Positions 43,265 to 58,484 of a stretch of DNA of 64,000 nucleotides are shown here, one piece after another. Within the stretch, counting starts at the first letter, position 1, and every line of letters starts with the position of its first letter. Location of the stretch: assembly GCA_011390345.1 (NCBI GenBank), contig JAABSP010000012.1, forward strand, positions 7,846 to 71,845. The letters are read 5' to 3'. The notes under the pieces were generated by a model that did not search any database, had not been told where the DNA came from, and saw nothing but the letters and a program-made list of their open reading frames with translations. The translations under genes and the position numbers were made by a program. Origin of the DNA: Desulfobacteraceae bacterium (GTDB lineage: Bacteria > Desulfobacterota > Desulfobacteria > Desulfobacterales > JAABSP01).

Positions 43265-46200
43265 CCGAACCGAAAAATTACCCCAGGCTGGACCCGAAAC
43301 TGGAGAAGCTGCTGGAAAAGGCCGATGTAAAGCCCCTGGACATCAGCGAGGCCATCTGGCAGCCACTTGCCCAGAACATCCCCGCACAGCAGAACCTGGT
43401 CGTCACGACGCCCGGAAGAGCTGAAAAGACGGTCATCGCAGTGACCATTGCCGCCATCCTGTCCAGGTATGTGGAACGGATCTGGTATGTGGAGCCCCGG
43501 AGGGAAACGGATGACTACCGAACCTTCCGGATCTCCGCGGCCCTCTCCCATATCGGAACATCGACCTTCACCCGAGGGGAAGGGGGTGATTTCAATGCCC
43601 CGGTGCTGATCTGGCCCCTCGACATGGTGCTGGATCATTTGGCCGATCTCGAGGACATCCCCTGGCCCGGGGCTTTGATCTTAAACGGGCTGGAGCGGAT
43701 GGATCACCCACAGGACGGGGCGTTGATGGAGGCCCTGCTCCTTGCCCTGCCGGCCGACATTCCCGTTGCTGGGGTCGGAAGCGGGATTGCAAACATCGAT
43801 GCCGTGGCCAGTTGGCTGGAGACCCTCAAGGGACGGCCCTGCCGCAGCTATCACGCAGATATCGAGCCGATGCCCCGGATTCCGGCCTTTCTGACCTCGG
43901 AATGGGAACTGCTGCCTCTGCTGGACAGAAAAAAGCTCTCGGGAAGGGTAAAGCGGAGCCTGAAAGAACTGTCGCCCTTTGATGCCGACTCCCCCAAGTT
44001 CATGCGCGAGCTGCTGGAATTTTTAGGGGCCGGCTTCGGCCCTGCCCTGGCGGTTGCGGCCGCGCCCGGTGAGTGTGACAGTGCGGTTTTCAGAGGCCCA
44101 AAGGCCGCGAAAAAGGCCGGGGACCCCCTGACCGAACCTCTGGTGAGCCGCATTCTGGACCAGAACCCGGACATCAAGGAGGCCCCCCTGCTCAAGGAGG
44201 TGCTGGCCCGGCGGATCGGTACGGTCCACGAGAACCACCATCCCCTCTGGAACCGGCTCATGGAGCACCTCATGGCTATGGATGGACTGGATCTGATCGT
44301 CGGAACCCCGGGAACCCTTTCGGAGATGGATGTCCGTACAAAGAGTGTACTCTTTCTTGCATCGGAAACTCCGGAGCCCCACAAGGAGGCAGAGGAGATA
44401 TCCCACTGGGACGGGAACCGGATCATTCGGCTTGCGGGGCGCCGCGGGGTCGATGATGCCGGGTGGGTCATCGCGGTCCACGAGTCAGACACGGACCCGG
44501 TTCGGATCAAGGATCTCTTTCTGGCCGACGAGCATTCCCTCTCGGGCGCGTTCCGGTGCGATTTCCGGACGGTGCTGGCGCTCTGCAGCCAGGCACGCTT
44601 CGGCGTTCCAAAAGATATGCTGGAGAGATCCTTCACCGGAGACGCGGAAGAGCCGTTTACCGGCTTCGACCTCTCTGAGTTCCGGCAGGGTCTTGCAGAA
44701 GAGATCCCCAATGCCCGGTGCAGCGGCCACATCCAGTCGGTATCCGCGCTGAAGGATCTGCGGATTCGGCTGACTTTGGAGATGACGCGGATCGAAGATA
44801 CCCATCCCCGGGAGGCAAAGGGGAAAGAGGCTGCGCTGAAGCGGCGCCTCCAAGAGCTGGAGACCTTTCTGCCGGAGCTTCCCTGCGAGGGCTGCGACCA
44901 TTTCTCCCTCTGCCACGGCCGGGGCACCAAGACCTTCCGGGCACTGATGGAACAGTACTATGAAAACCTGGAGCCGTTGAAGGAGAGCCGCGCCGGGCTG
45001 CTACTCGACCTGGACCACCGGATCGAGTCTCTGCGGGCCTTCGGTTTGATCGATGATGAGGACAGGCTCACGGAAATGGGAAAGAGTGCCCTCAGAACCG
45101 GCCTGGAGACGCCCCAGCCCCTGGTGGAATGCCTGCGGCAGGGGGTTTTCGAGGATCTGGAGCCGCAGATCGCGATCGCCCTGGCCGGCGGGTTCATCGA
45201 AATGGGGGAATGGCGGCCCAAACCCCATATGGAAGAGAATCTGAGAAGCTTTTTTTCCGATCTGGAACCGGTCTATGCGAAGATGGAACCGGCCATCGAC
45301 AGTGCCCGAAGGGAGATGCTCCGCTTCGGCTTTGCCGTCAAAGCGCCGTCGCCCCAGCAGTCGGCCATCATCCTGGCCTGGACCGGGGAAACCGATGAAC
45401 GGACTCTGAAGCAGTACACGGGGATTCCCATGGGGCCCCTCGCGGAACTGATCCGGAGGACCCGGTATCTCTGCCGGCAGTTGAACATCGGACCGCTCTC
45501 AGGGGTCTGCCATACGGATGATCGAATCGACGACCGCTCAACCGGGGAAGAGGATATCAAAGAGGGAGAAAACGCTCCGATCAGGGAAAAGGAAAGGGAT
45601 GAAAATATGATGCAGCCGCTCGTCTATCGGATTCATCTGGAGCCGGATCCGGACCGGTTCCGGTTCTCAGGAAATGTAAAGATCCGTTTTCAGGTCCGAA
45701 AGCCTTCGGATACCATTGTACTGAACATTCTGGATCTTGCGGTCTGGCGCTGCGAGATCCTCCGGGACGGGGAAAAGATCCCCTGCGCCTTCTCTGCGGA
45801 GCCCCGGAAGGAGGAACTGATCATTACCCTTCCGGAGCCGGCCGAGGGCGAGATCGAAATCTTCATCGAATATGAAGGGAACATCAACGACCAGATGGCC
45901 GGGTTCTATCGGAGCGGCTACAAGGTCGGGGAGGAGACCCGGTACATCGCAGTGACCCAGTTCCAGGAGAGCGATGCCCGAAGGGTCTTTCCCTGCATGG
46001 ACCACCCGCAGCAGAAGGCCGTCTTCGAGATCGAGATGGTCTGTGACCGGCGACTCACCCCGATCGCGAACACCCTGCCGGTCGAAGAGCGGAAGATCGA
46101 TGAGAACCGGCGGCTGACCCGTTTCGCGCCGACGCCCAAGATGTCAACCTATCTCCTCTTCATGGGGATCGGCGAGTTCGACATCGTCGGGGATTCGGAG

Positions 46201-48078
46201 GACCCGAGGATTCGGGTGATCACGACCCCGGGTCTCACCAGGTACGGAAAGCTTGGGCTCGATTTCGGGAAAAAGGCGCTGCAGTACTGCGAGGAATATT
46301 ACGACATCCCCTTCCCCCTGCCCAAGCTGGATCAGATCGCAGTCCCCGACTTCGCGTTCGGCGCGATGGAGAACTGGGGCGCGATCACCTACCGGGAGAA
46401 CCTGCTCCTCGATTTTCCCGAGATCACCTCCAAGGCGGGCCGTGAGCGGATCTGCGAGGTGATCGCGCACGAGACCGCGCACCAGTGGTTCGGCAACCTG
46501 GTCACGCCGTCGGACTGGAAATACCTCTGGCTCAACGAGAGCTTTGCCACCTATTTCGGCTTCGGGGTGGTGGATCACTACTATCCGGAATGGGAGATCT
46601 GGGATCAGTTCATCCATACCGAGACCCATGTGGCCCTGGTGCGGGATGCTCTGCATGAGACCTTTCCCATCGAGATTCCGGGCGGCGAGCATGTGGTCAT
46701 AAACGCGAGCACAGCGCCCATCATCTACAACAAAGGGGGCAGCATTCTCCGGCAGGTCGAGGGGTATATCGGAACCGAGAGCTTTCAGGGTGGGCTGAGA
46801 AGCTATCTGAAGAAGTTCGAATACGGATGCGCTTCCAGCCATGATCTCTGGGACGCGCTGGCCGCGGCATCGGATGCCCCCATCACCCGGATGATGAAGG
46901 GATGGGTGGAGCAGCCGGGATTTCCGGTCATCGAGGCCCGGCGGGACAGCGATGAGCTGACCCTGACCCAGCGCAGATTTACCTATCTGCCCAATGATTC
47001 GGAGCAGGTCTGGCCCGTGCCGGTGATCCTGCGCCTCTTCGATGAAAAAGGGGAATCGAGGGCCGAGACGATCCTTCTGGAAAAAGTTTCTGAGACGATA
47101 CCGATAGATCCGGGCACCACAGCCTTCAAGATCAACGACGGCCAGACCGGCTTCTATCGGGTCCGGTATGAGGAGAAGGATCTGGAAAACCTGGCCCCGC
47201 TGGTGAAGGAGAAAGTACTCTCTCCCCAGGACCGGTGGGGGCTGGAGAGCGATCTATACGAGCAGGTCAAGGCCGCAAACCTGACGCCGGATAAGTACCT
47301 CGATTTCCTGGATCACTACAGGGATGAGGATGCCTTCCTCCCCCTGGTGAGCATCGCGGGCAACCTCTTCGGCTCCTATCTGATCCTTTCGGAGAAGTGG
47401 AAAGAGCGGATTGCGTCAACCGCAAAGGGGATTTTCGAGCCGCTGCTCGCCAGGATCGGATATGAGCCCGCGGAAGATGAGCCCCACACCACTTCCCTGC
47501 TCCGGGACCGGATCATCTGGCCTCTGGCTCTTTACGGATCGGATGAGACGCGGGAATTCTGCCGGAAGAGGTTTTCGGTTCTACAGTCCGGCGGAAGAGT
47601 CCATCCGGATATTGCAAAGAGTGTGATGCAGGTGGCCGCGCTATCGGGCGGAGAGGAGGTCTGGGAATGGCTGATCAACCGGCTGAAGAGTACCGAGAGC
47701 GAGCATGAGCGGATGAACATCCTGATCGCGATGGGCTGTTTTTCTGATAAGTCGCTGATCGACCGGGCAAAGGAGTATATTCTGGAAAAAGTCCCCAGCC
47801 GCAACCGGTTCGTGCCCATCTCCGCGCTGACCATGAATCCCCATGCCATTCCCGATATGTGGAACTGGTATCAGGAGAACCTGCGCGCGCTGGAGGCATT
47901 TCACCCGATCCATTACGAGCGGGTGATCGAATCGATCATGCCGGTCTGCGGGCTGGTCAGTCCCGATGCGGTGAAGGCGTTCTTCAAGGAGTATGGGAGC
48001 AAGAAGCCGGCGTTCAAGGATATAATCAACCTCTCTCTGGAGAAGCTGGAGATCAACCTGCGGATGGCGGAGATGTAA
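43261..48078 (+). CDS. single 1605-aa ORF: degenerate Ski2/HelY-like helicase (aa 1-~770) fused in frame to an M1-family aminopeptidase (aa ~783-1605)
   Basis: The N-terminal half keeps Ski2-like landmarks (IGTVHENHHP...GLDLIVGTPGTLSEMDV; LAGRRGVDDAGWVIAV) and a DSHCT-like end. Its Walker A reads TTPGRAEKT and the DEVH position reads NGLE. The C-terminal half has intact M1 motifs GAMENWG, HETAHQWFGNLV and WLNESFA plus an ERAP1-like C-domain. No stop codon separates the halves. Confidence 0.85.
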   Translation: MTEPKNYPRLDPKLEKLLEKADVKPLDISEAIWQPLAQNIPAQQNLVVTTPGRAEKTVIAVTIAAILSRYVERIWYVEPRRETDDYRTFRISAALSHIGTSTFTRGEGGDFNAPVLIWPLDMVLDHLADLEDIPWPGALILNGLERMDHPQDGALMEALLLALPADIPVAGVGSGIANIDAVASWLETLKGRPCRSYHADIEPMPRIPAFLTSEWELLPLLDRKKLSGRVKRSLKELSPFDADSPKFMRELLEFLGAGFGPALAVAAAPGECDSAVFRGPKAAKKAGDPLTEPLVSRILDQNPDIKEAPLLKEVLARRIGTVHENHHPLWNRLMEHLMAMDGLDLIVGTPGTLSEMDVRTKSVLFLASETPEPHKEAEEISHWDGNRIIRLAGRRGVDDAGWVIAVHESDTDPVRIKDLFLADEHSLSGAFRCDFRTVLALCSQARFGVPKDMLERSFTGDAEEPFTGFDLSEFRQGLAEEIPNARCSGHIQSVSALKDLRIRLTLEMTRIEDTHPREAKGKEAALKRRLQELETFLPELPCEGCDHFSLCHGRGTKTFRALMEQYYENLEPLKESRAGLLLDLDHRIESLRAFGLIDDEDRLTEMGKSALRTGLETPQPLVECLRQGVFEDLEPQIAIALAGGFIEMGEWRPKPHMEENLRSFFSDLEPVYAKMEPAIDSARREMLRFGFAVKAPSPQQSAIILAWTGETDERTLKQYTGIPMGPLAELIRRTRYLCRQLNIGPLSGVCHTDDRIDDRSTGEEDIKEGENAPIREKERDENMMQPLVYRIHLEPDPDRFRFSGNVKIRFQVRKPSDTIVLNILDLAVWRCEILRDGEKIPCAFSAEPRKEELIITLPEPAEGEIEIFIEYEGNINDQMAGFYRSGYKVGEETRYIAVTQFQESDARRVFPCMDHPQQKAVFEIEMVCDRRLTPIANTLPVEERKIDENRRLTRFAPTPKMSTYLLFMGIGEFDIVGDSEDPRIRVITTPGLTRYGKLGLDFGKKALQYCEEYYDIPFPLPKLDQIAVPDFAFGAMENWGAITYRENLLLDFPEITSKAGRERICEVIAHETAHQWFGNLVTPSDWKYLWLNESFATYFGFGVVDHYYPEWEIWDQFIHTETHVALVRDALHETFPIEIPGGEHVVINASTAPIIYNKGGSILRQVEGYIGTESFQGGLRSYLKKFEYGCASSHDLWDALAAASDAPITRMMKGWVEQPGFPVIEARRDSDELTLTQRRFTYLPNDSEQVWPVPVILRLFDEKGESRAETILLEKVSETIPIDPGTTAFKINDGQTGFYRVRYEEKDLENLAPLVKEKVLSPQDRWGLESDLYEQVKAANLTPDKYLDFLDHYRDEDAFLPLVSIAGNLFGSYLILSEKWKERIASTAKGIFEPLLARIGYEPAEDEPHTTSLLRDRIIWPLALYGSDETREFCRKRFSVLQSGGRVHPDIAKSVMQVAALSGGEEVWEWLINRLKSTESEHERMNILIAMGCFSDKSLIDRAKEYILEKVPSRNRFVPISALTMNPHAIPDMWNWYQENLRALEAFHPIHYERVIESIMPVCGLVSPDAVKAFFKEYGSKKPAFKDIINLSLEKLEINLRMAEM

Positions 48079-48093
48079 GCACCCGAAACCATA

Positions 48094-48675
48094 TTATACG
48101 CCGAAGACCGCGTCCAGATCGATGACAAGCCCCTCGATGGATGCGGTCTTTTTGCTTCCGCCCTCCAGAATTTCCGTTGCGCCATATCGGCCGTCAGGCC
48201 CCAGGATACGAACGTAGAGAATATTATCCGCCGGATGAATGATCCAGTACTCTTTTACACCATGTTTTTCGTATAAGGAGAGCTTCCGGATCTGATCCTT
48301 GGCCGCAGTGGAAGGCGACAGGATTTCGATGATGAAATCCGGCGCGCCCCGACACCCCCGGTCATCGACCTTTGAAGAATCACAGACCACGGAAAAATCC
48401 GGCTGCACAACGGTGATGATCTCGTCATCCGCCTCATTCTTCTCCGGTAGCCGGACATCGAAGGGCGCAATATAGGGAATACACTCGCTGTCCTGTAAAT
48501 GATTGCTGATCTGACGGCCCAGTTCCAACAGGATTCGCTGATGACGTGGATGGGGTGCAGGACTCATATCATAAGGAACCCCTTGGATCAGCTCACATCG
48601 TTCCTCATCGGGCCAGTTTCGGTAATCTCTATAGGTTAGGATCTCTTTTTCGTTTTTCAAGCTCGGCATCGACAT
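48094..48675 (-). CDS. Uma2-family (DUF820) restriction-endonuclease-fold protein, copy 1
   Basis: ...WPDEERCELIQGVPYDMSPAPHPRHQ...VVQPDFSVVCD...GAPDFIIEILSPSTAAKDQIRKLSLYEKHGVKEYWII contains the PD-(D/E)xK core. Confidence 0.85.
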   Translation of the reverse strand: MSMPSLKNEKEILTYRDYRNWPDEERCELIQGVPYDMSPAPHPRHQRILLELGRQISNHLQDSECIPYIAPFDVRLPEKNEADDEIITVVQPDFSVVCDSSKVDDRGCRGAPDFIIEILSPSTAAKDQIRKLSLYEKHGVKEYWIIHPADNILYVRILGPDGRYGATEILEGGSKKTASIEGLVIDLDAVFGV

Positions 48676-48734: not shown

Positions 48735-49316
48735 TCATACGCTGAAGACCGCGTCCAGATCGATGATAAGTTCCGGAACGGCTGCGATCTTTTTGCTTCC
48801 GCCCACCACGATTTCCGACACACCGTATCGACCGTCGGGGCCGAGGGTCCGGACATAGAGGATGTTGTCCGTGGGATGGATGATCCAATACTCTTTCACC
48901 CCATGCTTTTCGTAGAGCGAGAGCTTCCGGGTCTGATCCTTGGCTGCGGTCGACGGCGACAGGATTTCGATGATGAAATCCGGCGCGCCCCGACACCCCC
49001 GGTCATCGACCTTTGAAGAATCACAGACGACCGCAAGATCCGGCTGGACAACGGTGATGATCTCGTCATCGGCCTCATCCTTCTCAGGAAGCCGGAAATC
49101 GTAGGGCGCCACAAAGAGCCTGCAGTCTCTGTTCATTAAACATCGGAAAATCTGGTAGTTCAGCGCCACAAGGATCTCCTGATGGCGGGTATTGGGTGCA
49201 GGACTCATATCATAAGGAACCCCTTGGATCAGCTCCCATCGTTCCTCTCCGGGCCAGTTCCGGTAATCCCCATAGGTGAGGATCTCTTTTTCGTTTTTCA
49301 GATTCGGCATCGACAT
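48735..49316 (-). CDS. Uma2-family (DUF820) restriction-endonuclease-fold protein, copy 2
   Basis: This is a paralog of copy 1. The start is set at ATG 49316 (MSMPNLKNEK), preceded by AAAGGAGAG at 8 nt, matching the copy 1 start context. The track start at 49343 is an upstream extension. Confidence 0.85.
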   Translation of the reverse strand: MSMPNLKNEKEILTYGDYRNWPGEERWELIQGVPYDMSPAPNTRHQEILVALNYQIFRCLMNRDCRLFVAPYDFRLPEKDEADDEIITVVQPDLAVVCDSSKVDDRGCRGAPDFIIEILSPSTAAKDQTRKLSLYEKHGVKEYWIIHPTDNILYVRTLGPDGRYGVSEIVVGGSKKIAAVPELIIDLDAVFSV

Positions 49317-49346
49317 GGCATTTGCTCTCCTTTTCATGCTCATCTA

Positions 49347-49437: not shown

Positions 49438-49467
49438 TTGACAGAGAGGGTCAAGGTAAACCATACT
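49438..49467 (+). promoter_or_regulatory. possible sigma70-like promoter for moaC (TTGACA-18 nt-CATACT) with overlapping 7-bp inverted repeat CCTTGAC/GTCAAGG
   Basis: The sequence is ccTTGACAgagagggtcaaggtaaacCATACT, about 35 nt upstream of the moaC ATG. Confidence 0.3.
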
Positions 49468-49500
49468 CTTCCTTTGATATTGCAGAAGGGAGGGCTGCAG

Positions 49501-50010
49501 ATGACCGACTTCACCCACATCGACGAAAAAGGGCAGGTTCGGATGGTGGATGTCTCGGAAAAGGCCGAAACCGTTCGAACCGCGACCGCAGAAGCCCGCA
49601 TCGAGATGAAACCGGAGACCTTTCGCCGGATCTATGACAAGGAGATCAAAAAGGGGAATGTGCTGGAGACGGCCCGGATCGCGGGCGTCATGGCCGCAAA
49701 AAGAACCGGGGAGCTGATCCCCATGTGCCATCCCATCCCCATCACCCACGCGCAGGTCGATTTTCTGCCGGAGCCGGATACCCATACCATCCGGATCAGC
49801 GCAACGGCCCGCACAGTGGGCCAGACCGGGGTGGAGATGGAGGCGCTGACCGCGGCCTCTGTGGCGGCCCTGACCATCTATGACATGTGCAAGGCCATCG
49901 ACCGGGAGATGACCGTGAAAGAGATCCGGCTGATGGAAAAATCAGGGGGAAAGAGCGGAGATTTTCTTAGGACCCAAGCGGATGCATCTAAAGGAGAGGC
50001 GGGGCCATGA
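49501..50010 (+). CDS. moaC: cyclic pyranopterin monophosphate synthase MoaC
   Basis: [21 protein letters not shown]...[21 protein letters not shown]...[23 protein letters not shown]. The start at 49501 is preceded by GAAGGGAGGG. Confidence 0.92.
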
Positions 50011-51296
50011 GAAAAAAAACATATGCAGCATTTGGCGTTCTGATCAGTCTTCTGTTTGCACTCTGGGGATGCCCTCAAAAACCGCTGCCGCCGCCGGAAC
50101 CGGAAAAGCCCGACCTGGTCCGGCTGGCACTGGAAGATTATCCCCGGTTTGCCGATGATATGAACTACGACGGGCTGGACCAAGCCATCCAGAAGAGCCT
50201 GCTCTACCTGAACCGGATTCCGCCGAACCGCACCTTTTCCCTCGGTGAGGAGACTGTATCCGCAGCCCATGTAAAGCGTTCCCTGGAGCGGTTTCAGGAT
50301 ATCCTCTTCCTGAAACCGACGCCCGATGATCTGAACCGGTTCATCCGGGAGAACTTCCGGGTTTACGGATCTTTGGCGCCGGCACCAGAACCCCCGACAG
50401 CAGAGGAATCAGAGGAGGAATCAGAGCCCGAATTAGAACCGGATGCCCCCCCTTTAAAAACCGCAGAGAATGCGGTTCTCTTCACCGGATATTTCGAGCC
50501 CCTGCTGCAGGGAAGCCTCTCCCGGGGCGGCCCCTATCAGTATCCGGTCTACGGGATGCCCCAAAATATTGCGGTGGTGGATCTCTCCCTCTTTTCAGAT
50601 AAATATGCCGGAGAGAAGATCATCGGCCGGGTCTCGGGAAAGAGCTTTGTTCCCTATTATGAGCGCAAGGAGATCGAAGAGAAGGGGGTATTGCGGAATA
50701 ATGCCCCGGTGCGGGCCTGGGTCGATGACCCGATCGATCTCTTCTTTCTGCAGATCCAGGGGTCCGGAAAGATCGAACTGACGGATAAAGAGATCATCGA
50801 TGTCCATTACAGCGGAAAGAATGGCCGCCCCTATCGGGCCATCGGCCGGCTGCTCATCGACGAGGGAAAGGTCTCCAAAGAAGAGATGTCGATGCAGCGG
50901 ATCCGCCAATATCTGGAGGAGAACCCTGATGACGCGGATCGGGTGATGAACTACAACCCGAGCTATGTCTTTTTCAGTATCGAAGATGACGGGCCCAAAG
51001 GCGCATTGAACGTGGTGCTGACCCCGGGCCGCTCTCTTGCGGTGGACCGGGGGATCTTCCCCATGGCCGCGCTCGCGTTTGTCCGAACAGAAAAGCCGCT
51101 GCTGGACCATGAGGGCCGGATTCGAGAATGGACCCATTTTTCCCGATTCATGCTCCATCAGGATACCGGAGGCGCGATCAAAGGCGCGGACAGGGCAGAC
51201 ATCTTCTGGGGAAGCGGCCATTATGCCGAGATCGCGGCGGGACATCTGCGCCACCGGGGAGAGCATTATCTACTGCTGCTGAACCCGGATAAATAG
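50007..51296 (+). CDS. mltA: murein transglycosylase A (MltA) lipoprotein
   Basis: The lipobox is LFALWGC. The MltA and 3D domain blocks are present (TGYFEPLLQGS..., FLQIQGSGKI, GRPYRAIGRLL, LHQDTGGAIKGADRADIFWG). Confidence 0.88.
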   Translation: MRKKTYAAFGVLISLLFALWGCPQKPLPPPEPEKPDLVRLALEDYPRFADDMNYDGLDQAIQKSLLYLNRIPPNRTFSLGEETVSAAHVKRSLERFQDILFLKPTPDDLNRFIRENFRVYGSLAPAPEPPTAEESEEESEPELEPDAPPLKTAENAVLFTGYFEPLLQGSLSRGGPYQYPVYGMPQNIAVVDLSLFSDKYAGEKIIGRVSGKSFVPYYERKEIEEKGVLRNNAPVRAWVDDPIDLFFLQIQGSGKIELTDKEIIDVHYSGKNGRPYRAIGRLLIDEGKVSKEEMSMQRIRQYLEENPDDADRVMNYNPSYVFFSIEDDGPKGALNVVLTPGRSLAVDRGIFPMAALAFVRTEKPLLDHEGRIREWTHFSRFMLHQDTGGAIKGADRADIFWGSGHYAEIAAGHLRHRGEHYLLLLNPDK

Positions 51297-51343: not shown

Positions 51344-51805
51344 ATGTTCGGCATGGGAATGCCTGAAATCATTCTTATACTGGCCATCGCACTGATTGTG
51401 ATCGGCCCAAAAAAGCTTCCGGAAATGGCCAAATCCCTGGGCCGGGCCATGGGGGAGTTCAAAAGAGCCACCAGCGATTTCCGGGAGACCCTGGAGATCG
51501 ACAATGAACTCTCCCAGGTGAAGAAAGCCTTTGACGACATGAACGTCGAAGATCAGGAGGAGAAAAGACCGCCGGCCCCCCTGAAGGAGAAAAAGGCATC
51601 GCCGCCCAAGGAGAGCATCGAGGTTTCCGATGATCCGGCTGCGGCCCCGGATATAGTGGCCATGACCGAGGGAGAGGCGACAAAAGCAGAGAAGCCCCTG
51701 GCGGAAAAGGAAGCTGGAGAGAGAGCCCCGGAATCGGAAAAGCCCTTGTCTCAAAAGGGTTCAGAACCGGAAACCGCTTCGGAAAAAGGAACCGCCAATG
51801 CTTAG
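51344..51805 (+). CDS. tatB: twin-arginine translocase TatA/TatB-family protein with long acidic tail
   Basis: MFGMGMPEIILILAIALIVIGPKKLPEMAKSLGRAMGEFKRA is the TatA/E/B N-terminal signature. The 153-aa length suggests a TatB-like role. Confidence 0.85.
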   Translation: MFGMGMPEIILILAIALIVIGPKKLPEMAKSLGRAMGEFKRATSDFRETLEIDNELSQVKKAFDDMNVEDQEEKRPPAPLKEKKASPPKESIEVSDDPAAAPDIVAMTEGEATKAEKPLAEKEAGERAPESEKPLSQKGSEPETASEKGTANA

Positions 51806-52583
51806 GGAAGAGGACAAGATTCCCTTTACCGAGCATCTGGAGGAGCTTAGAACCCGGCTGATCAACTCCTTTATCGCTGTCTTCATCGGCTTTTTCATCT
51901 GCTACTTCTTCAAGGAAACTCTTTTCCAGATTCTCACCGCGCCGCTGATTGCGGTCATGGGCGAGGGGGACAAGCTGATCTTCACCAATCTGCCCGAGGC
52001 CTTCTTCACCTACCTGAAGGTGGCCTTGCTGGCCGGGATCATGCTGGCCGCGCCCTTCCTTTTCTACCAGTTCTGGATGTTCGTCGCGCCGGGCCTCTAT
52101 CAGAAGGAGCGCCGGATTCTGATCCCCATCGTTCTTCTCTCTTCGATCTTCTTTGTGGGGGGCGCGCTCTTCGGCTATTTCATCGTCTTCCCCTGGGGTT
52201 TCAAATTCTTTTTAGGGTTTGCAAGCGAGACTATCCGGCCCCTTCCCTCCATGAAGGAGTATCTGAGTTTTTCCAGCAAGCTGCTGATCGCGTTCGGCGT
52301 AGTCTTCGAGCTTCCCCTGGTGCTCACCTTCATGGCCCGGCTGGGGATGGTTTCGGTCGATTTTCTGAAGAAGAACCGAAAATATGCGCTGCTGCTCTTT
52401 TTTATCGGTTCGGCCATTCTCACCCCGCCCGATGTGGTGACGCAGGTGATGATGGCGCTTCCCCTGATGCTGCTCTACGAGGTCAGCATCATCGGCGCGC
52501 GGATCTTTGGCCGGAAGCCTTTGGATGCGGATTTGCCGGACATGGATGAGGATGAATTGAAACAGAAGAAAGATAAAGCATGA
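51798..52583 (+). CDS. tatC: twin-arginine translocase subunit TatC
   Basis: FTEHLEELRTRLI..., six TM helices, ...LTPPDVVTQ... It overlaps tatA/B by 8 nt. Confidence 0.93.
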   Translation: MLREEDKIPFTEHLEELRTRLINSFIAVFIGFFICYFFKETLFQILTAPLIAVMGEGDKLIFTNLPEAFFTYLKVALLAGIMLAAPFLFYQFWMFVAPGLYQKERRILIPIVLLSSIFFVGGALFGYFIVFPWGFKFFLGFASETIRPLPSMKEYLSFSSKLLIAFGVVFELPLVLTFMARLGMVSVDFLKKNRKYALLLFFIGSAILTPPDVVTQVMMALPLMLLYEVSIIGARIFGRKPLDADLPDMDEDELKQKKDKA

Positions 52584-54337
52584 CAGACAACGATAAACCG
52601 ATCCAGCGGGAAACCTTCGACGATTTCAACTACCCTCTTCCCATGGAATATCTTCTGGAGCTGGAGGATACTTCGGCAAGCTCCGGATATTTCGGCTGCG
52701 TCCCAAAGGAAGAGCGGGTTTTCAGCGCGGGGCTGGCCTATTTAAGAGAACGGCCCTATGATGAGTTTCTCCATAAAAGGCTCCTCAATGCAATGCAGGT
52801 GCTGCCCCAGAGCCGGATCGTGGAGTGGATCAAGGAGACCGGGCCGGGCGCGGAAAAGGAGGCGGACAAGGTCTTCCGGGCCATGCTCTATGAAGCCTGT
52901 ATCCTCTACGAGCGATTCAATCCCCTGCTGTGGCGCTTCAAGGCCGAAGAGATCGAAGAACTTGCGGCCCATACGCCGCTGGTCTATATCAAATCGGTCA
53001 ATATGCCGGATCATGAGCTGCACCTGCAGTGGATGGGGGCGTTTGCAGGAAACATCGGAAAGCACCAGCTCCTGCCGAAATCTGCCGATGCCGGGGTCTC
53101 CTTTCCGGTATCGGATGAGGCCATCAAAGCCGCAGAGGGTATCGTTCCGGTGCAAAAGATCCGGCTTCAATTCAAAAGCGATGAGAAGATCATGGCCTGT
53201 GCGCCCCAGCCCCCGGAAACCGTGGCGCAGGAGGCGATCACCCGGCTGGAGCGGATGGGTGTTCTGGAAGGACCCGAGATGCGCCACATGACCTCCCTTT
53301 CTCCGATGGGGCTTCTCCGGAAATGGCATATGGGGCTTCGGGTGGTCAACGGCCGCCTCGACTATCTTCTCTCGGGAATCCAGACCTCCTATGGCCGGGG
53401 GATCGACGAGAATTCGGCCCGGGCCTCCTGCGCGATGGAGGTGGCCGAGCGGGTCTCCTCTTTTGCCGGCATCGGGGATCAGGGGGTGCTGGATCGGACC
53501 TATACCTATCCCCTCACCCATGCCCGGTACAGCAGACTGAAAAATGACGGGATCGAGGCCCTGGACCCGAACCGGCTCCATCTGGAGGCCCCATACCATG
53601 ACGAGCCCCTCTACTGGATCTCCGGAGAGCGGGCACACGGGACCGCGGTTCTGGTGCCGGCCCAGTGCGTCTTTCTCTTTGCCAACCTGGATGAAATCTC
53701 CCTCTTCTCCGGGCTCGGCTCAACAGGGCTGGCCTCGGGAACCACGTTGACAGGGGCCAAGGTGAGCGCGCTGCTGGAGTGCATCGAGCGGGATGCCGAG
53801 GGAACCACGCCCTTTCATCTGGAGGGTTGCTTTATCCTGGAAACCGATGATCCCGAGATCTCAAAACTTCTTGGGGAATACCGGGAAAAGGGGGTGCAGG
53901 TCTGGTTTCAGGAAATCACCTCGGCCTTTGGGGTTCCCTGCTTTAAATCCTTTGTGATCGGCCCAGACGGCGAGATTGCAAAGGGTGTGGGCGCGCATCT
54001 CAACGGCCGGCGGGCGCTTCTCTCCGCGATGACCGAAACGCCCTACCCTTTTCCGTCGGGGCCCCCCTCACTGCCGGGGCCGCCCGATCTTCCGGCTCGA
54101 AAACTGGAGGATCTGCCGGACTTCTCCACGGGCCGTGCCGAGACCGATCTTCAGCTTCTGGAGGCGCTGCTGACGGAAAACCGCGCCGCGCCCATATATG
54201 TGGAGATCACCCGGACAGACCTCTCCATTCCCGTTGTCCGAGCCATTGTTCCGGGGCTTGCCCTGTCTGCCGATTTTGACCGCTTCTCCAGGGTTCACCC
54301 CCGGCTCTTTGCCAACTATCTCAGGATGTACGGGTAA
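52580..54337 (+). CDS. YcaO-domain protein with ~210-aa unassigned N-terminal domain
   Basis: The YcaO core is SYGRGIDENSARASCAMEVAERVSSFAG...GLASGTTLTGAKVSALLECIERDA...FGVPCF... The ATG overlaps the tatC stop (ATGA at 52580..52583). Confidence 0.88.
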   Translation: MTDNDKPIQRETFDDFNYPLPMEYLLELEDTSASSGYFGCVPKEERVFSAGLAYLRERPYDEFLHKRLLNAMQVLPQSRIVEWIKETGPGAEKEADKVFRAMLYEACILYERFNPLLWRFKAEEIEELAAHTPLVYIKSVNMPDHELHLQWMGAFAGNIGKHQLLPKSADAGVSFPVSDEAIKAAEGIVPVQKIRLQFKSDEKIMACAPQPPETVAQEAITRLERMGVLEGPEMRHMTSLSPMGLLRKWHMGLRVVNGRLDYLLSGIQTSYGRGIDENSARASCAMEVAERVSSFAGIGDQGVLDRTYTYPLTHARYSRLKNDGIEALDPNRLHLEAPYHDEPLYWISGERAHGTAVLVPAQCVFLFANLDEISLFSGLGSTGLASGTTLTGAKVSALLECIERDAEGTTPFHLEGCFILETDDPEISKLLGEYREKGVQVWFQEITSAFGVPCFKSFVIGPDGEIAKGVGAHLNGRRALLSAMTETPYPFPSGPPSLPGPPDLPARKLEDLPDFSTGRAETDLQLLEALLTENRAAPIYVEITRTDLSIPVVRAIVPGLALSADFDRFSRVHPRLFANYLRMYG

Positions 54338-54352
54338 AAACAGGTTCTGAAG

Positions 54353-54907
54353 ATGGACCTGCCTCTCCCCCCTCCCCTGCGGACCCGCTGGTGCGTGATC
54401 ACGGGCGCGCCCTGTTCCGGAAAGACCACGGTGATCGACATCCTCGCTCGCCAGGGTTTTCACACGGCTCTGGAGGAGGCCCGGGCATATATCGACGAGG
54501 AGTTGGACAAGGGCAGAACCATCGAGGAGATCCGATCGGACCTGCTCTCCTTCGAGCGAAACATTCTCCACCGGAAGATCCGATCCGAAGAGGGGCTTCC
54601 CCGGGAGGAGCGGGTCTTTCTGGACCGGGCCCTGCCGGACAGCGTCGCCTATTATCGAATGGACGGCCTGAACCCGGAAGAGCCGTTGGCTTTTGCCCGG
54701 AAATACCGGTATGAAAGGGTATTCTTCTTCGAACCGCTCAAATTCCAAAAGGATCGGGTCCGGGCAGAGGACGAGGAGCGGGCGCAAAAGCTGGACTGGC
54801 TCCTCAGTTCAGCCTATCACAGCCTCGGATACGATCTCATCCGGGTTCCGGTTGTGTCGATCCCGGACCGGGTGCGGCTCGTTCTGACGGCTCTAAACGA
54901 CGGATGA
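54353..54907 (+). CDS. AAA_28 / NadR-type small P-loop ATPase
   Basis: Walker A is ITGAPCSGKTT. The pattern ...FLDRALPDSVAYY..., ...RVFFFEPL... is typical of the AAA_28 family. Confidence 0.7.
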   Translation: MDLPLPPPLRTRWCVITGAPCSGKTTVIDILARQGFHTALEEARAYIDEELDKGRTIEEIRSDLLSFERNILHRKIRSEEGLPREERVFLDRALPDSVAYYRMDGLNPEEPLAFARKYRYERVFFFEPLKFQKDRVRAEDEERAQKLDWLLSSAYHSLGYDLIRVPVVSIPDRVRLVLTALNDG

Positions 54908-55067
54908 TGAAAAATAGACCCATTTTTAGAGATGGTGACAAATCTCGCTGCCAACAAGAGGAGTGGCAATCTGCGGAAAAGGGGGCCACGGAGGATTATC
55001 TGGCCGGAAAAACCGAATCTTCACCAAGTATCGAGGAGATGTTTCGGCGAATTGAGAGGTGTACCGA

Positions 55068-55096
55068 TTGACAAAACTCTCCCTGTTCATTAGGAT
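55068..55096 (+). promoter_or_regulatory. sigma70-like promoter for ilvA (TTGACA-17 nt-TAGGAT)
   Basis: The sequence is gaTTGACAaaactctccctgttcatTAGGATc, 46 nt upstream of the ilvA ATG. The RBS AAAGGAGG lies at 55127. Confidence 0.4.
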
Positions 55097-55141
55097 CATT
55101 AAGATTATGAGAGATTTGCGAAAAAAGGAGGTTTTCTGCGG

Positions 55142-56347
55142 ATGGTAAATCTTGAAGCCATCCAAGAGGCTGCATCGCTTCTAAAGGGCCGGATCTTTCG
55201 GACCCCCGTGGTCCACTCCCCCACTCTGAGCCGAACCTTTGGCGGCAGCATCTTTCTAAAGCTCGAAAATCTCCAGCGAACCGGCTCTTTCAAGATTCGC
55301 GGCGCAACCTGCAAGATGGCAATGGCCGCGGAAAAAATCGGCTCTGCAGGCGTGGTCGCGGCCTCTGCGGGCAATCATGCCCAGGGGGTGGCTCTGGCAG
55401 CAAAGGAGGCAGGATTTCCTGCAACCATCGTCATGCCTGAATGGGCCTCCATCTCCAAGCAGGAGGCCACCCGGGGCTATGGGGGCGAGGTGATCCTTTA
55501 CGGCCAGAGCATCGAAGAGAGCCTTGAAAAGGCGCACTCTCTTTCCCAAGAGGGCGGGGTATTTATCCATCCCTTTGATGATCCGGAGATCGTCGCCGGC
55601 CAGGGGACCATCGGGCTGGAGATTTTAGAGGAGGTGAAGGATGCGGATCTGCTGATCGTTCCGATCGGCGGGGGCGGCCTCATCTCCGGCATCGCGGCTG
55701 CTGCAAAGGCCATCCGACCCAAGATCCGCGTGATCGGCGTACAGACCGGCATCTGCCCCTCGGCCTATGAATCCCGGCGTCTGGGGCGGCGGATCGAGGT
55801 GTCGTCAGGGGCTTCCATTGCAGACGGCATCTCTGTCAAGCAGATCGGCGAGTGCAACTATTCCCTCATTGAAAAGCATGTGGACGAGATCGTCCTTGTC
55901 GGTGAGGAAGGGATCGCAGCGGCCCTGCTGATGCTGCTGGAGCGGAAAAAAGTCCTCTCAGAAGGGGCCGGCGCGGTCCCCCTGGCCGCGCTCATCGAGG
56001 GAAAAATCTCCATCTCTGCGGCGGAGAAGGCGGTTCTGGTCATCAGCGGCGGCAATGTTGACAGCCCCCTGCTGGGAAGGATCATCAACCGGGGGCTGCT
56101 TCGAAACGGCCGGATCATGCGGGTCTGCGTGACCCTGAGCGACACCCCCGGCTCTCTGGCAAAGCTGCTGGGACGGGTGGCGCAGCTTAAGGCCAATGTT
56201 CTCCACATCTATCACGACCGGAACCGGGAGAACCTGCCCATCAACAGCACCTGCGTGGAGCTGGAACTGGAGACCCGGAGCAGCAATCATATCGACGCGC
56301 TTCGGCGGGAACTGCAGCTCTCGGGCTATGCCATTCAAACCCTGTAA
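55142..56347 (+). CDS. ilvA: threonine ammonia-lyase (short form with single C-terminal ACT-like domain)
   Basis: LENLQRTGSFKIRGA contains the PLP-Lys. Also present are SAGNHAQGVA and GGGGLISG, plus a C-terminal regulatory domain. Confidence 0.92.
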   Translation: MVNLEAIQEAASLLKGRIFRTPVVHSPTLSRTFGGSIFLKLENLQRTGSFKIRGATCKMAMAAEKIGSAGVVAASAGNHAQGVALAAKEAGFPATIVMPEWASISKQEATRGYGGEVILYGQSIEESLEKAHSLSQEGGVFIHPFDDPEIVAGQGTIGLEILEEVKDADLLIVPIGGGGLISGIAAAAKAIRPKIRVIGVQTGICPSAYESRRLGRRIEVSSGASIADGISVKQIGECNYSLIEKHVDEIVLVGEEGIAAALLMLLERKKVLSEGAGAVPLAALIEGKISISAAEKAVLVISGGNVDSPLLGRIINRGLLRNGRIMRVCVTLSDTPGSLAKLLGRVAQLKANVLHIYHDRNRENLPINSTCVELELETRSSNHIDALRRELQLSGYAIQTL

Positions 56348-57905: not shown

Positions 57906-58220
57906 ATGTTTAAAACAATTAAGTATATAAGGAATGAAGTAAAAAACGAAACATATGAGATATCAATTCACGCAGATGATGAAAGGCTGAATGATGAACT
58001 TACAATCGAAGATATTGAGTATGTTTTGAATAATTGTGAAATTATCGAAAAATATCCGTCTGATAAAAGAGGAGAAAGCTGTCTGATTTACGGTGATACC
58101 CCGGGAAGTTTGCCAGTTCATATTGTATGTGGCAAAAACTCGCTGAATCATCTGTTTATTATTACAGTTTATATTCCTAAGATGCCAAAATGGAAGAATC
58201 CTCGTGTCAGAAACCGATAG
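57906..58220 (+). CDS. DUF4258-domain toxin-like protein
   Basis: 104 aa. The pattern ISIHADDERL...ITIEDIEYVLNNCEIIEKYP.D.RGESCLIYG...LHIVC......IITVY.P matches DUF4258. The gene lies in an AT-rich islet. Confidence 0.75.
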   Translation: MFKTIKYIRNEVKNETYEISIHADDERLNDELTIEDIEYVLNNCEIIEKYPSDKRGESCLIYGDTPGSLPVHIVCGKNSLNHLFIITVYIPKMPKWKNPRVRNR

Positions 58221-58229
58221 ATAAGAGAG

Positions 58230-58484
58230 GTGGCAATGAGTGAATACAGTGACTGCTATTATTGCAGAGGGGTGGTTAAAGAACAGAATATTTCTCGTGA
58301 GATCTGGTGGAAAGGTAATCTCTATATTTTTGAGAATGTCCCTGTCGGAGTATGTATTCAATGTGGTGAAAAAGTAATAAAACCTAAAACAGCAAAGCAG
58401 ATTGATAACATGCTTAAAATGGAAACGGAACCTCATAAAATGATAAAGGTTCCGGTATTTGAATATGGCTTAAAACCCGTATAA
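58230..58484 (+). CDS. YgiT-type (MqsA N-terminal-like) zinc-finger antitoxin-like protein
   Basis: CYYC...16 aa...ENVPVGVCIQCGEKV is a four-Cys zinc ribbon. The gene starts 9 nt after the DUF4258 gene. Confidence 0.75.
   Translation: MAMSEYSDCYYCRGVVKEQNISREIWWKGNLYIFENVPVGVCIQCGEKVIKPKTAKQIDNMLKMETEPHKMIKVPVFEYGLKPV

What the first reader, a model, noticed from the sequence alone, without database searches (positions are those of the whole stretch)
51344..54907. YcaO-domain gene translationally coupled to tatC (tatA/B-tatC-ycaO-AAA_28 ATPase)
The YcaO start codon overlaps the tatC stop (ATGA at 52580-52583), and tatC itself overlaps tatA/B by 8 nt. A small AAA_28/NadR-type ATPase follows 15 nt after ycaO.

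The YcaO protein has a ~210-aa N-terminal domain that I cannot assign, followed by a canonical ATP-utilising YcaO core. The locus has no TfuA, no E1-like or Ocin-ThiF partner, no SagB-type dehydrogenase and no short Cys/Ser/Thr-rich precursor ORF. A classical azoline or thioamide RiPP cluster is therefore unlikely.

Tight coupling to the Tat translocase suggests two possibilities. One is backbone modification of a Tat component or a Tat substrate. The other is a protein-modifying YcaO analogous to the E. coli YcaO/RimO-S12 or McrA-thioamidation precedents.
Basis: partly seen in the sequence, partly recalled or inferred. Interest (0 to 1): 0.65.

Follow-up and report, generated by a model that had tools for sequence, protein, structure and literature searches.

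The report
Orphan YcaO enzyme coupled to tatC
A real, conserved but uncharacterised ATP-dependent enzyme of the YcaO type, which modifies peptide backbones and is seen here only in sulfate-reducing Desulfobacterota, sits at the tail of the Tat protein-export operon. The pairing holds in one bacterial order but not across the family, so the enzyme probably modifies an unknown cellular protein rather than serving Tat.

Summary
tatA/B, tatC, ycaO and an AAA_28 gene lie exactly as described, and the ycaO ATG overlaps the tatC stop (ATGA).

- **Family.** The YcaO belongs to a distinct, unpublished family: more than 600 homologues, 369 GTDB species, and every named member is from Desulfobacterota.
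- **Architecture.** A roughly 200-aa N-terminal domain occurs nowhere else and matches nothing in Pfam or PDB. It is followed by a YcaO core whose ATP/Mg residues are 99–100% conserved. The closest solved relative is the TfuA-independent McrA-thioamidating YcaO of M. jannaschii.
- **tatC linkage.** tatC lies immediately upstream in 32 of 80 species loci, all from Desulfobacterales-type lineages. In 25 of these a start codon overlapping the tatC stop is available.
- **Other contexts.** Desulfovibrionaceae carry rplM-rpsI-ycaO-ilvA or -liv. Other clades place ycaO beside sugar, peptidoglycan-hydrolase or ccm genes. The AAA_28 gene is not conserved.
- **No partners.** I found no TfuA, E1-like partner, dehydrogenase or conserved small ORF.

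My best reading is a housekeeping, partner-less enzyme that modifies a protein backbone. Thioamidation with ambient sulfide is the most plausible chemistry. The gene rides at the end of constitutive operons. A Tat-specific role is possible but weakly supported. I rate it a new variant of a known kind, of moderate interest.

The parts
49438..50010 (+). moaC, first gene of the conserved block moaC-mltA-tatB-tatC-ycaO
   Evidence: Pfam MoaC E 9e-60. moaC lies upstream of mltA in 17 related loci, about 2.5 kb before ycaO in most.
50007..51296 (+). mltA (lytic murein transglycosylase A); overlaps moaC by 4 nt
   Evidence: Pfam MltA and 3D domains. Present 1.3-2.8 kb upstream of ycaO in 18 loci.
51344..51805 (+). 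tatA/B-family gene (153 aa, TatB-like in length)
   Evidence: Pfam TatA_B_E E 7e-18. NCBIfam hits to both TatA/E and TatB models, none above an equivalog cut-off.
51798..52583 (+). tatC; overlaps tatA/B by 8 nt
   Evidence: Pfam TatC E 1e-74; TIGR00945 232.9 bits against a cut-off of 132.7.
52580..52583 (+). ATGA: the ycaO start overlapping the tatC stop
   Evidence: Sequence read directly. A start codon overlapping the tatC stop by 1-11 nt is available in 25 of 32 tatC-linked loci.
52580..54337 (+). ycaO, 585 aa, member of a Desulfobacterota-restricted family with an N-terminal domain plus a YcaO core
   Evidence: The AF2 model has pLDDT 85.7 and pTM 0.89.
52640..53197 (+). Family-exclusive N-terminal domain: a beta-hairpin (aa 22-42) plus a helical bundle (aa 48-196). 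Residues Y24, G36, P59 and D61 are near-invariant.
   Evidence: No Pfam, PDB-sequence or Foldseek match. The domain profile finds only 258 clusters among 1.84e9 representatives, nearly all 545-615 aa YcaO proteins. Conservation.
53198..54334 (+). YcaO catalytic core (aa ~207-585), homologous end to end with M. jannaschii YcaO
   Evidence: Profile against PDB: MJ1094 E 1.8e-28. Foldseek: 6pe3 E 2e-19, TM 0.74.
53438..53452 (+). First ATP/Mg motif, E287-x2-E290-R291 (EVAER)
   Evidence: Translation; 100% conserved in 431 homologues.
53720..53791 (+). Second ATP/Mg motif, S381...E400-x2-E403-R404
   Evidence: Translation; 99-100% conserved. It aligns to the corresponding motif of MJ1094 and TruD.
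54353..54907 (+). AAA_28 P-loop NTPase, 15 nt after ycaO; not a conserved partner
   Evidence: Pfam AAA_28 E 3e-33. tblastn finds it only in L001, the same-species MAG. Only a weak PDB hit, to dephospho-CoA kinase (E 0.098).
55142..56347 (+). ilvA-type threonine dehydratase (PALP domain). Listed because ycaO-ilvA adjacency recurs in Desulfovibrionaceae.
   Evidence: Pfam PALP E 1.5e-80. About 40-42% identical to the ilvA directly downstream of ycaO in L085-L089 and L092.

Best explanation
The gene encodes a catalytically competent, partner-less YcaO of a distinct family restricted to Desulfobacterota.

Like other YcaOs, it should use ATP to activate a backbone amide carbonyl of a peptide or protein. 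This is established YcaO chemistry. For this family it is inferred from conserved ATP/Mg residues.

No cyclodehydratase partner, dehydrogenase, TfuA or precursor is linked anywhere in the family. The closest characterised relatives are the TfuA-independent archaeal enzymes that thioamidate McrA using sulfide, and the hosts are sulfidogenic. I therefore infer that the most likely reaction is thioamidation of a chromosomally encoded protein that is not adjacent to the gene. I infer that the family-exclusive N-terminal domain provides substrate docking or oligomerisation.

The overlap with tatC means the enzyme is co-transcribed and translationally coupled with a constitutive housekeeping operon in Desulfobacterales. 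In Desulfovibrionaceae the same role is played by rplM-rpsI. The linkage therefore reflects expression hitch-hiking, not a dedicated Tat function.
For: **Shown**
- Gene layout and ATGA overlap.
- Family size and full-length conservation.
- E287, E290, R291, S381, E400, E403 and R404 are 99-100% conserved in 431 members.
- The closest solved relative is M. jannaschii YcaO, by sequence (E 4.9e-12), by profile (E 1.8e-28) and by fold (E 2e-19, TM 0.74).
- The N-terminal domain is exclusive to this architecture.
- No conserved partner or small ORF appears across about 90 loci.
- Operon hosts differ by clade: tatBC in 32 of 80 loci and rplM-rpsI in 7 Desulfovibrionaceae loci.
- The YcaO tree broadly follows taxonomy, which suggests vertical inheritance.

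**Literature**
- E. coli YcaO thioamidates uL16 without TfuA. The authors predict further protein substrates and note that sulfide-rich organisms can dispense with TfuA (PMC13063428).
Against: - No substrate is identified, and no chemistry was tested.
- The YcaO evolves faster than its neighbours. Median identity to the window protein is 46.6%, against 74.4% for TatC. In Desulfovibrionaceae YcaO is 37% identical where IlvA is 77% and L13 is 79%. This runs against the argument in PMC13063428 that a static substrate gives a slowly evolving YcaO.
- The tatC coupling persists across deep divergence, and tatBC is still 3.3 kb upstream in one Desulfovibrio-like lineage. Pure hitch-hiking does not require that.
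- Peptidoglycan-hydrolase genes and ilvA/liv recur near ycaO, which remains unexplained.
- The median family pI is 5.7, so there is no electrostatic clue like the pI of 4.4 reported for E. coli YcaO.
Confidence: 0.45

Rival explanations
1. Tat-dedicated function. The YcaO modifies TatA/B, TatC, a Tat signal peptide or a Tat cargo, and that is why it is translationally coupled to tatC.
For: - tatC lies immediately upstream in 32 of 80 species loci spread over several Desulfobacterales clades.
- An overlapping start codon is available in 25 of these, and it is the only available start in at least 8.
- tatBC is still 3.3 kb upstream on the same strand in a Desulfovibrio-like lineage (L094).
- The coupling persists while YcaO itself has diverged to about 45% identity.
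Against: - 48 of 80 loci lack tatC nearby, as do all but one of the Desulfovibrionaceae contigs examined. Those sit in unrelated operons such as rplM-rpsI, sugar genes, M23 peptidase and ccm.
- Tat is near-universal, but every named member of this family is from Desulfobacterota.
- The N-terminal domain shows no similarity to the Tat chaperones TorD and DmsD.
- From my own knowledge: E. coli tatD is co-operonic with tatABC yet is not required for Tat export, so membership of a tat operon is a weak functional predictor.
Confidence: 0.12
2. Ribosomal-protein modifier. The family is the Desulfobacterota functional analogue of E. coli YcaO (uL16 thioamidation), acting on a ribosomal or translation protein.
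For: - rplM-rpsI-ycaO is conserved in 7 Desulfovibrionaceae contigs.
- A PrmA-like methyltransferase lies directly downstream in 5 loci.
- An EF-P-family gene lies divergently upstream in 3 loci and is nearby in a fourth.
- The precedent is PMC13063428.
Against: - The family is not homologous to E. coli YcaO beyond the superfamily level: BLASTP E 0.08, and the family profile gives no hit.
- It has no C-terminal TPR domain.
- It is not strongly acidic.
- Most loci have no translation gene nearby.
Confidence: 0.12
3. RiPP maturase whose precursor peptide is encoded elsewhere. This would be a stand-alone cyclodehydratase or thioamidase making a secreted natural product.
For: - NCBIfam TOMM_cyclo_SagD is the top hit, though at 99 bits it is below its cut-off.
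- The fold is close to LynD and MusD.
- There is an internal PxPxP-like motif, PYPFP.
- Sequence divergence is relatively fast.
- One database record calls a homologue 'bacteriocin'.
Against: - There is no conserved small ORF, E1-like or Ocin-ThiF partner, dehydrogenase, protease or exporter in about 90 loci (and the contig look-ups).
- The gene is embedded in housekeeping operons with stable synteny, and its tree is congruent with taxonomy. That is unlike patchy, mobile biosynthetic gene clusters.
Confidence: 0.1
4. Non-protein or envelope-linked substrate. The enzyme activates an amide or oxyanion in a metabolite or a cell-wall precursor peptide, linked to peptidoglycan remodelling or to Thr/Ile metabolism. 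A molybdate-type futile cycle, as proposed for DVU2210, is another version.
For: - Peptidoglycan-hydrolase genes (MltA, M23, MltD-like, MltC-like) recur within about 1.5 kb in 5 apparently independent contexts.
- ilvA or livKHMGF lies downstream in two clades, including the window.
- moaC heads the operon.
- DVU2210, a different YcaO, affects molybdate sensitivity (PMC7774982).
Against: - The enrichment statistics are post hoc.
- All characterised YcaOs act on ribosomal peptide or protein backbones.
- DVU2210 has the opposite architecture (YcaO at the N-terminus, TPR at the C-terminus).
- No Moco riboswitch or other Rfam element lies in the operon.
Confidence: 0.08

Closest known systems
TfuA-independent archaeal YcaO that thioamidates McrA-Gly (M. 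jannaschii MJ1094, PDB 6PE3/6PEU; M. kandleri, 6CI7/6CIB)
   Same: - It is the best sequence, profile and fold match, and the catalytic core aligns end to end.
- The ATP/Mg motifs are shared.
- There is no TfuA and no E1-like partner.
- The host lives in high sulfide.
   Different: - Identity is only about 22%.
- TIGR03266 scores 91 bits against a cut-off of 365.
- This family is bacterial, and its hosts have no McrA.
- It carries an extra family-exclusive N-terminal domain of about 200 aa.
E. coli YcaO (thioamidates ribosomal protein uL16 Met82; PMC13063428)
   Same: - It is a housekeeping, partner-less, TfuA-less YcaO acting on a protein that is not encoded next to it.
- The overall length is similar (586 aa).
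   Different: - There is no detectable pairwise homology (E 0.08), and the family profile does not hit it.
- The E. coli protein has an N-terminal YcaO domain and a C-terminal TPR domain. Here the accessory domain is N-terminal and unrelated.
- This family is not strongly acidic.
Azoline-forming cyclodehydratases (LynD, TruD, MusD; SagD/TOMM family)
   Same: They share the YcaO fold and ATP motif. TIGR03604 is the top NCBIfam hit.
   Different: - The TIGR03604 score of 99 bits is below its cut-off of 219.
- There is no E1-like or RRE domain, fused or adjacent.
- There is no dehydrogenase and no precursor.
- The N-terminal domain does not match the N-terminal domains of LynD or TruD.
DVU2210, the YcaO-TPR protein of Desulfovibrio vulgaris implicated in molybdate sensitivity (PMC7774982)
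   Same: It is a YcaO-superfamily protein of unknown function in a sulfate reducer, and it too has no RiPP context.
   Different: As described in the paper, DVU2210 has an E. coli-like architecture, with the ATP motif near aa 220 and a C-terminal TPR domain. Here the ATP motif lies at aa 381-404, behind a novel N-terminal domain.
tatD in the E. coli tatABCD operon (my own knowledge, not tested here)
   Same: It is a cytoplasmic enzyme gene fixed at the 3' end of a tat operon.
   Different: TatD is a nuclease unrelated to YcaO. I cite it only as a precedent that operon membership need not mean a Tat function.

Membership tests
YcaO superfamily (PF02624 / TIGR00702) | YcaO domain above the curated cut-off | tested here: met
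   PF02624 scores 138.3 bits against a cut-off of 25.7. TIGR00702 scores 75.7 against 75.65, which is borderline.
YcaO superfamily (PF02624 / TIGR00702) | Conserved ATP/Mg-binding Glu/Arg motifs | tested here: met
   EVAER and S...ExxER are present and 99-100% conserved in 431 homologues.
YcaO superfamily (PF02624 / TIGR00702) | ATP-dependent backbone amide activation (enzymatic activity) | not testable with these tools
   This needs a biochemical assay.
TOMM / azoline cyclodehydratase (SagD family, TIGR03604) | Score above the family cut-off | tested here: not met
   99.4 bits against a cut-off of 219.25.
TOMM / azoline cyclodehydratase (SagD family, TIGR03604) | E1-like, Ocin-ThiF or RRE partner (fused or adjacent), and a Cys/Ser/Thr-rich precursor nearby | tested here: not met
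   The N-terminal domain has no match to such domains. No conserved partner or small ORF appears in about 90 loci.
McrA-glycine thioamidation YcaO (TIGR03266, methanogenesis marker 1) | Score above the equivalog cut-off; archaeal host with McrA | tested here: not met
   91.3 bits against a cut-off of 365. All named hosts are Desulfobacterota.
YcaO-TfuA thioamidation pair | tfuA adjacent to ycaO | tested here: not met
   No TfuA appears among the Pfam-annotated neighbours of 12 distinct contigs (13 loci, L083-L094 and L097). No conserved neighbour family is shared across the 80 GTDB loci.
E. coli YcaO / uL16-thioamidating group | Sequence grouping with E. coli YcaO, a C-terminal TPR domain, and a strongly acidic pI | tested here: not met
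   BLASTP E 0.08. The family profile does not hit 4Q84-86. hhalign of the N-terminal domain against E. coli YcaO gives probability 0.3. The pI is 5.19 for the window protein and 5.7 for the family median.
Tat system component or accessory factor | Co-occurrence and linkage with tatC throughout the family | tested here: not met
   Linked in 32 of 80 GTDB loci, all Desulfobacterales-type. Unlinked in the other 48 and in all but one (L094, 3.3 kb away) of the Desulfovibrionaceae contigs.
Tat system component or accessory factor | Effect on Tat export, or modification of Tat proteins or cargo | not testable with these tools
   This needs genetics and mass spectrometry.
YcaO + AAA_28 two-gene module | Conserved adjacency of the AAA_28 gene | tested here: not met
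   The AAA_28 homologue is found only in L001, the same-species MAG (YcaO 96% identical). It is absent from the other 79 GTDB loci and from the 13 additional family loci.

The most novel reading that the evidence does not exclude
The enzyme installs a backbone modification (thioamide, amidine or azoline) on a component or client of cell-envelope biogenesis. Candidates are TatA/B/C, a Tat- or Sec-exported redox protein such as the tetrahaem cytochrome c3 encoded just downstream in many relatives, or even a peptidoglycan precursor peptide. That would make it the third class of protein-modifying YcaO and the first backbone modification tied to protein export or cell-wall remodelling.
Probability: 0.12. 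Interest if true: 0.85.

Novelty: new variant of a known kind. Interest (0 to 1): 0.5.

Why it matters
So far only two protein substrates of YcaO enzymes are known: McrA in methanogens and uL16 in Pseudomonadota. The 2026 paper that assigned uL16 explicitly predicts that more exist.

This family is a well-defined candidate for a third. It is large, apparently vertically inherited, catalytically intact and partner-less. It carries its own recognition-type domain and is seen only in sulfidogenic Desulfobacterota, where free sulfide would make TfuA unnecessary.

Identifying its substrate would reveal a hidden backbone modification in a key group of sulfur-cycle bacteria. The conserved tatC coupling, the rplM-rpsI linkage and the downstream cytochrome c3 give a short, testable list of candidates.

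Tried and rejected
- **AAA_28 as partner: rejected.** It is found only in the same-species MAG.
- **Orthology with E. coli YcaO, and the 'S12 methylthiotransferase accessory factor' label some sources give: rejected**.
- **N-terminal domain identity.**
  - It gave no match to Pfam at E<=10.
  - The domain profile gave no match to PDB sequences.
  - Foldseek against PDB gave a best E of 0.2.
  - hhalign to the Tat chaperones TorD and DmsD, and to the E. coli YcaO TPR region, gave probability at most 0.3.
- **Conserved precursor ORF: none found.** Every conserved cluster of 20-90-aa ORFs within 2.5 kb is a shadow ORF inside tatC, tatB, mltA or dsrN.
- **Rosetta-stone fusions: none.** Members of 660-780 aa carry no extra Pfam domain.
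- **Riboswitch or other RNA regulating the operon: none.** The window contains one tRNA only.
- **Promoter and terminator scan of 49.3-55.3 kb:** no more sites than in shuffled sequence.
- **Electrostatic clue to the substrate: uninformative**.
- **Literature: nothing on this family.** Searches for YcaO with TatC, sulfate-reducing, Desulfovibrio or Desulfobacterota returned only DVU2210 (a different architecture) and a methanogen ycaO that is an insertion site for a tat-bearing island, which is coincidental.
- **SLT-motif regex scan for lytic transglycosylases: too strict.** It was replaced by phmmer searches.
- **Syntrophobacteraceae neighbours: heterogeneous.** They look like a histidine kinase, Tex, LexA, MsrB and an acetyl-CoA transferase, read by eye from the sequences and not run through Pfam.

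Full report
**Observation**

The genes run moaC (49438-50010), mltA (50007-51296), tatA/B (51344-51805), tatC (51798-52583), ycaO (52580-54337, 585 aa), an AAA_28 P-loop gene (54353-54907) and then ilvA (55142-56347), all on the + strand.

tatA/B and tatC overlap by 8 nt. The ycaO ATG is the ATGA at 52580-52583, and 15 nt separate ycaO from AAA_28. An internal Met (M22, 52643) matches the start of many homologues. It has no purine-rich upstream sequence, whereas 52580 does.

Pfam places the YcaO domain from about aa 272. NCBIfam gives only sub-threshold hits to the SagD/TOMM model (99 bits against 219) and the McrA-type model (91 against 365), and a borderline hit to the generic YcaO kinase domain.

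**The protein family**

A search of 5.8 billion proteins returned 606 hits at E<=1e-5. The best 120 are nearly all full length (521-632 aa, 89-100% coverage, 45-96% identity).

A scan of one genome per GTDB species found 369 relatives, and I fetched 80 loci. Two further searches seeded with divergent members found hundreds more. Every named source is a member of Desulfobacterota: Desulfobacterales (Desulfosarcina, Desulfonema, Desulfococcus, Desulfatibacillum), Syntrophobacterales and Desulfovibrionales. The nearest match (YcaO 96% identical, same gene order) is a Desulfobacteraceae MAG, S20.Bin068.

In an alignment of 431 members the ATP/Mg-binding residues E287, E290, R291, S381, E400, E403 and R404 are 99-100% conserved. 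So are the N-terminal residues Y24, G36, P59 and D61 (motifs verified). The family therefore consists of active enzymes, and the window copy deviates from the 90% consensus at only two positions.

**Structure and relatives**

AlphaFold2 on an 18-sequence alignment gave a confident single-body model (pLDDT 85.7, pTM 0.89). It has a beta-hairpin at aa 22-42, a helical bundle at aa 48-196 and the YcaO fold from about aa 207.

- Foldseek against PDB ranks M. jannaschii YcaO first (6PE3/6PEU, E 2e-19, target TM 0.74, 22% identity). LynD, MusD, M. kandleri YcaO and TruD follow, with E. coli YcaO last (E about 1e-12).
- The family profile gives MJ1094 at E 1.8e-28 and does not reach E. coli YcaO.
- BLASTP against E. 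coli YcaO gives E 0.08.

The 'S12 methylthiotransferase accessory factor' label that some sources give is therefore an over-transfer.

The N-terminal domain has no Pfam hit at E<=10 and no PDB sequence hit. It has no Foldseek PDB hit either (best E 0.2). hhalign shows no similarity to the Tat chaperones TorD and DmsD or to the E. coli YcaO TPR region. A profile of this domain searched against 1.84 billion representative proteins found only 258 clusters. Nearly all are 545-615 aa, which is the same architecture, and the short ones look like contig-end fragments. The domain is thus exclusive to this family. Longer members carry no additional domain.

**Is the tatC linkage real?**

tblastn of the window's neighbours against the 80 loci finds tatC immediately upstream of ycaO in 32. 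tatA/B usually precedes it, and in 17 the whole moaC-mltA-tatB-tatC-ycaO block is present.

In 25 of the 32, a start codon that overlaps the tatC stop by 1-11 nt is available. In at least 8 it is the only start upstream of the conserved N-terminus. The other 7 have gaps of 3-32 nt. On a neighbour-joining tree the linked loci fall in several Desulfobacterales clades interleaved with unlinked ones.

The coupling is ancient and retained while YcaO itself has diverged. Median identity to the window is 46.6%, against 74.4% for TatC, 63.8% for MoaC and 50% for MltA.

**The linkage is not family-wide**

| Clade or locus | Context around ycaO |
|---|---|
| Ethane-oxidiser-like clade (9 loci) | UDP-glucuronate-decarboxylase-type gene upstream; ispD convergent downstream in six |
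| Desulfatibacillum-type clade | M23 peptidase upstream |
| Another Desulfobacterales clade | EF-P-family gene divergent upstream |
| Desulfococcaceae (still tat-linked) | PrmA-like methyltransferase follows within -7 to +13 nt |
| Syntrophobacteraceae | Heterogeneous |
| Desulfovibrionaceae (seven contigs, L085-L087 and L089-L092) | rplM-rpsI-ycaO, followed by ilvA (also in L088, whose upstream flank is cut off) or livKHMGF |
| L083 | GT2-ycaO-ccmEFABC |
| L097 | Stealth and deacetylase genes, then ycaO-mltC-skp |
| L094 | tatB-tatC-hisB-x-hisA-(1.3 kb)-ycaO-ggt, so tatBC is still 3.3 kb upstream |

The AAA_28 gene occurs only in the window and its same-species MAG, so it is not a partner. 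No TfuA, E1-like or Ocin-ThiF partner, or dehydrogenase appears in any annotated neighbourhood. A dedicated search for conserved 20-90-aa ORFs within 2.5 kb found only shadow ORFs of tatC, tatB, mltA and dsrN.

**Interpretation**

Shown:
- The enzyme is intact, the family is distinct and the N-terminal domain is exclusive to it.
- There is no conserved partner or precursor.
- The gene sits at the 3' end of different constitutive operons in different orders.
- Inheritance looks vertical.

Inferred:
- The enzyme activates a backbone amide of a gene-encoded substrate that is not adjacent. This is also the case for the two known protein-modifying YcaOs (my own knowledge for McrA; PMC13063428 for uL16).
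- Thioamidation is the most plausible outcome. The nearest characterised relatives are TfuA-independent thioamidases, the hosts generate millimolar sulfide, and PMC13063428 notes that high-sulfide organisms can dispense with TfuA.
- I assign the N-terminal domain the substrate-docking or oligomerisation role that the RRE, E1-like or TPR domains play elsewhere.
- The tatC overlap then ensures co-expression with a housekeeping operon. From my own knowledge, E. coli tatD is a precedent for an enzyme fixed in a tat operon without a role in Tat export.

I put this reading at 0.45.

**What argues otherwise**

- The tat coupling is unusually persistent, and tat proximity reappears in one Desulfovibrio-like lineage. 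A Tat-related substrate cannot be excluded (0.12).
- The rplM-rpsI linkage, PrmA-like neighbours and EF-P-like neighbours keep a ribosomal substrate alive (0.12).
- The relatively fast divergence of YcaO compared with its neighbours is closer to RiPP-type behaviour as described in PMC13063428. However, nothing else in the loci looks like a RiPP cluster (0.10).
- Two patterns remain unexplained.
  - Peptidoglycan-hydrolase genes of four different families lie within about 1.5 kb of ycaO in five apparently independent contexts. A rough post-hoc estimate expects about 0.5-0.7.
  - ilvA or liv genes follow ycaO both in Desulfovibrionaceae and, with AAA_28 in between, in the window.
- A tetrahaem class III cytochrome c lies 58-194 nt downstream on the same strand in 13 loci, and about 2 kb downstream in 2 more. 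Only 1 such ORF appears in 558 kb of distal flanks. A cytochrome c3 also follows ilvA in L085. These 15 loci are largely one syntenic block, next to convergent dsrN and dsrB/A-type genes.

**Literature**

I found no paper that treats this family or a YcaO-Tat link.
- DVU2210 of D. vulgaris (PMC7774982) is a YcaO-TPR protein with the opposite domain order.
- The methanogen ycaO mentioned alongside tatC in PMC12667266 is merely the insertion site of a mobile hydrogenase/Tat island.

**Verdict**

This is a new variant within the YcaO superfamily, with its own architecture, taxon range and unknown substrate. It is not a new kind of system. Interest is 0.5: it is a clean, testable candidate for a third class of protein-modifying YcaO, but the Tat-specific idea that motivated the finding is weakly supported.

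Noticed in passing
window 43261-48078 (+): A single 1605-aa ORF joins a Ski2-type helicase C-terminal region (DSHCT, aa 601-742) in frame to a complete M1 aminopeptidase (aa 785-1597). It is either a real fusion or a lost stop codon.
   Followed up: partly
window 38861-42616 (+): A 1251-aa DUF6079 protein (E 2.7e-291) with a weak AAA_16 match lies directly upstream of the helicase/M1 ORF. Its function is unknown.
   Followed up: no
window 48094-48675 and 48735-49343 (-): Two tandem paralogues sit between the M1 ORF and moaC. The first is a Uma2-family putative restriction endonuclease by Pfam. The second was judged by eye from the translations and not run through Pfam.
   Followed up: partly
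window 57906-58484 (+): A DUF4258 gene is followed by an 84-aa Cys-rich (zinc-ribbon-like) ORF with no Pfam hit. The pair looks like a toxin-antitoxin module and lies in the lowest-GC stretch of the window, 0.51-0.53.
   Followed up: no
window 54353-56347; loci L085-L089, L092 (ycaO-ilvA); L090, L091 (ycaO-livKHMGF): A threonine dehydratase gene follows ycaO in the window (with AAA_28 between) and directly in Desulfovibrionaceae. In two contigs a branched-chain amino-acid ABC transporter takes its place. The reason is unknown.
   Followed up: partly
L026, L033, L036, L040-L042, L047, L054, L056, L059, L063, L065, L068 (58-194 nt after ycaO); L070, L076 (~2 kb); L085: A tetrahaem class III cytochrome c gene lies just downstream of ycaO on the same strand in many Desulfobacterales. 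It is followed by convergent dsrN (CobB/CbiA-type) and dsrB/A-type genes. The window itself lacks it.
   Followed up: partly
window 50007-51296 (mltA); L060, L067, L080, L064, L072 (M23); L071, L043 (MltD-like); L097 9991-11253 (MltC-like): Peptidoglycan hydrolase genes of four different families recur within about 1.5 kb of ycaO in five apparently independent genomic contexts. The enrichment was estimated post hoc.
   Followed up: partly
L094 1-6776: In a Desulfovibrio-like contig, tatB-tatC (TatC 463 aa) lies 3.3 kb upstream of ycaO with his genes between them. The 1.3-kb gap before ycaO is full of repeated sequence, with no called gene and no Rfam hit.
   Followed up: partly
window 54041-54055 (aa 488-492): An internal PxPxP-like motif (PYPFP, with P490 and P492 nearly invariant) follows the TET motif of the YcaO core. 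From my own recollection, not checked here, azoline-forming YcaOs carry a PxPxP motif at the extreme C-terminus. Its significance here is unknown.
   Followed up: no
window 16078-20673 (-) and 61710-63980 (-): A 1531-aa cadherin/Big_9-repeat protein, and a GAF-MshEN-T2SSE secretion ATPase.
   Followed up: no
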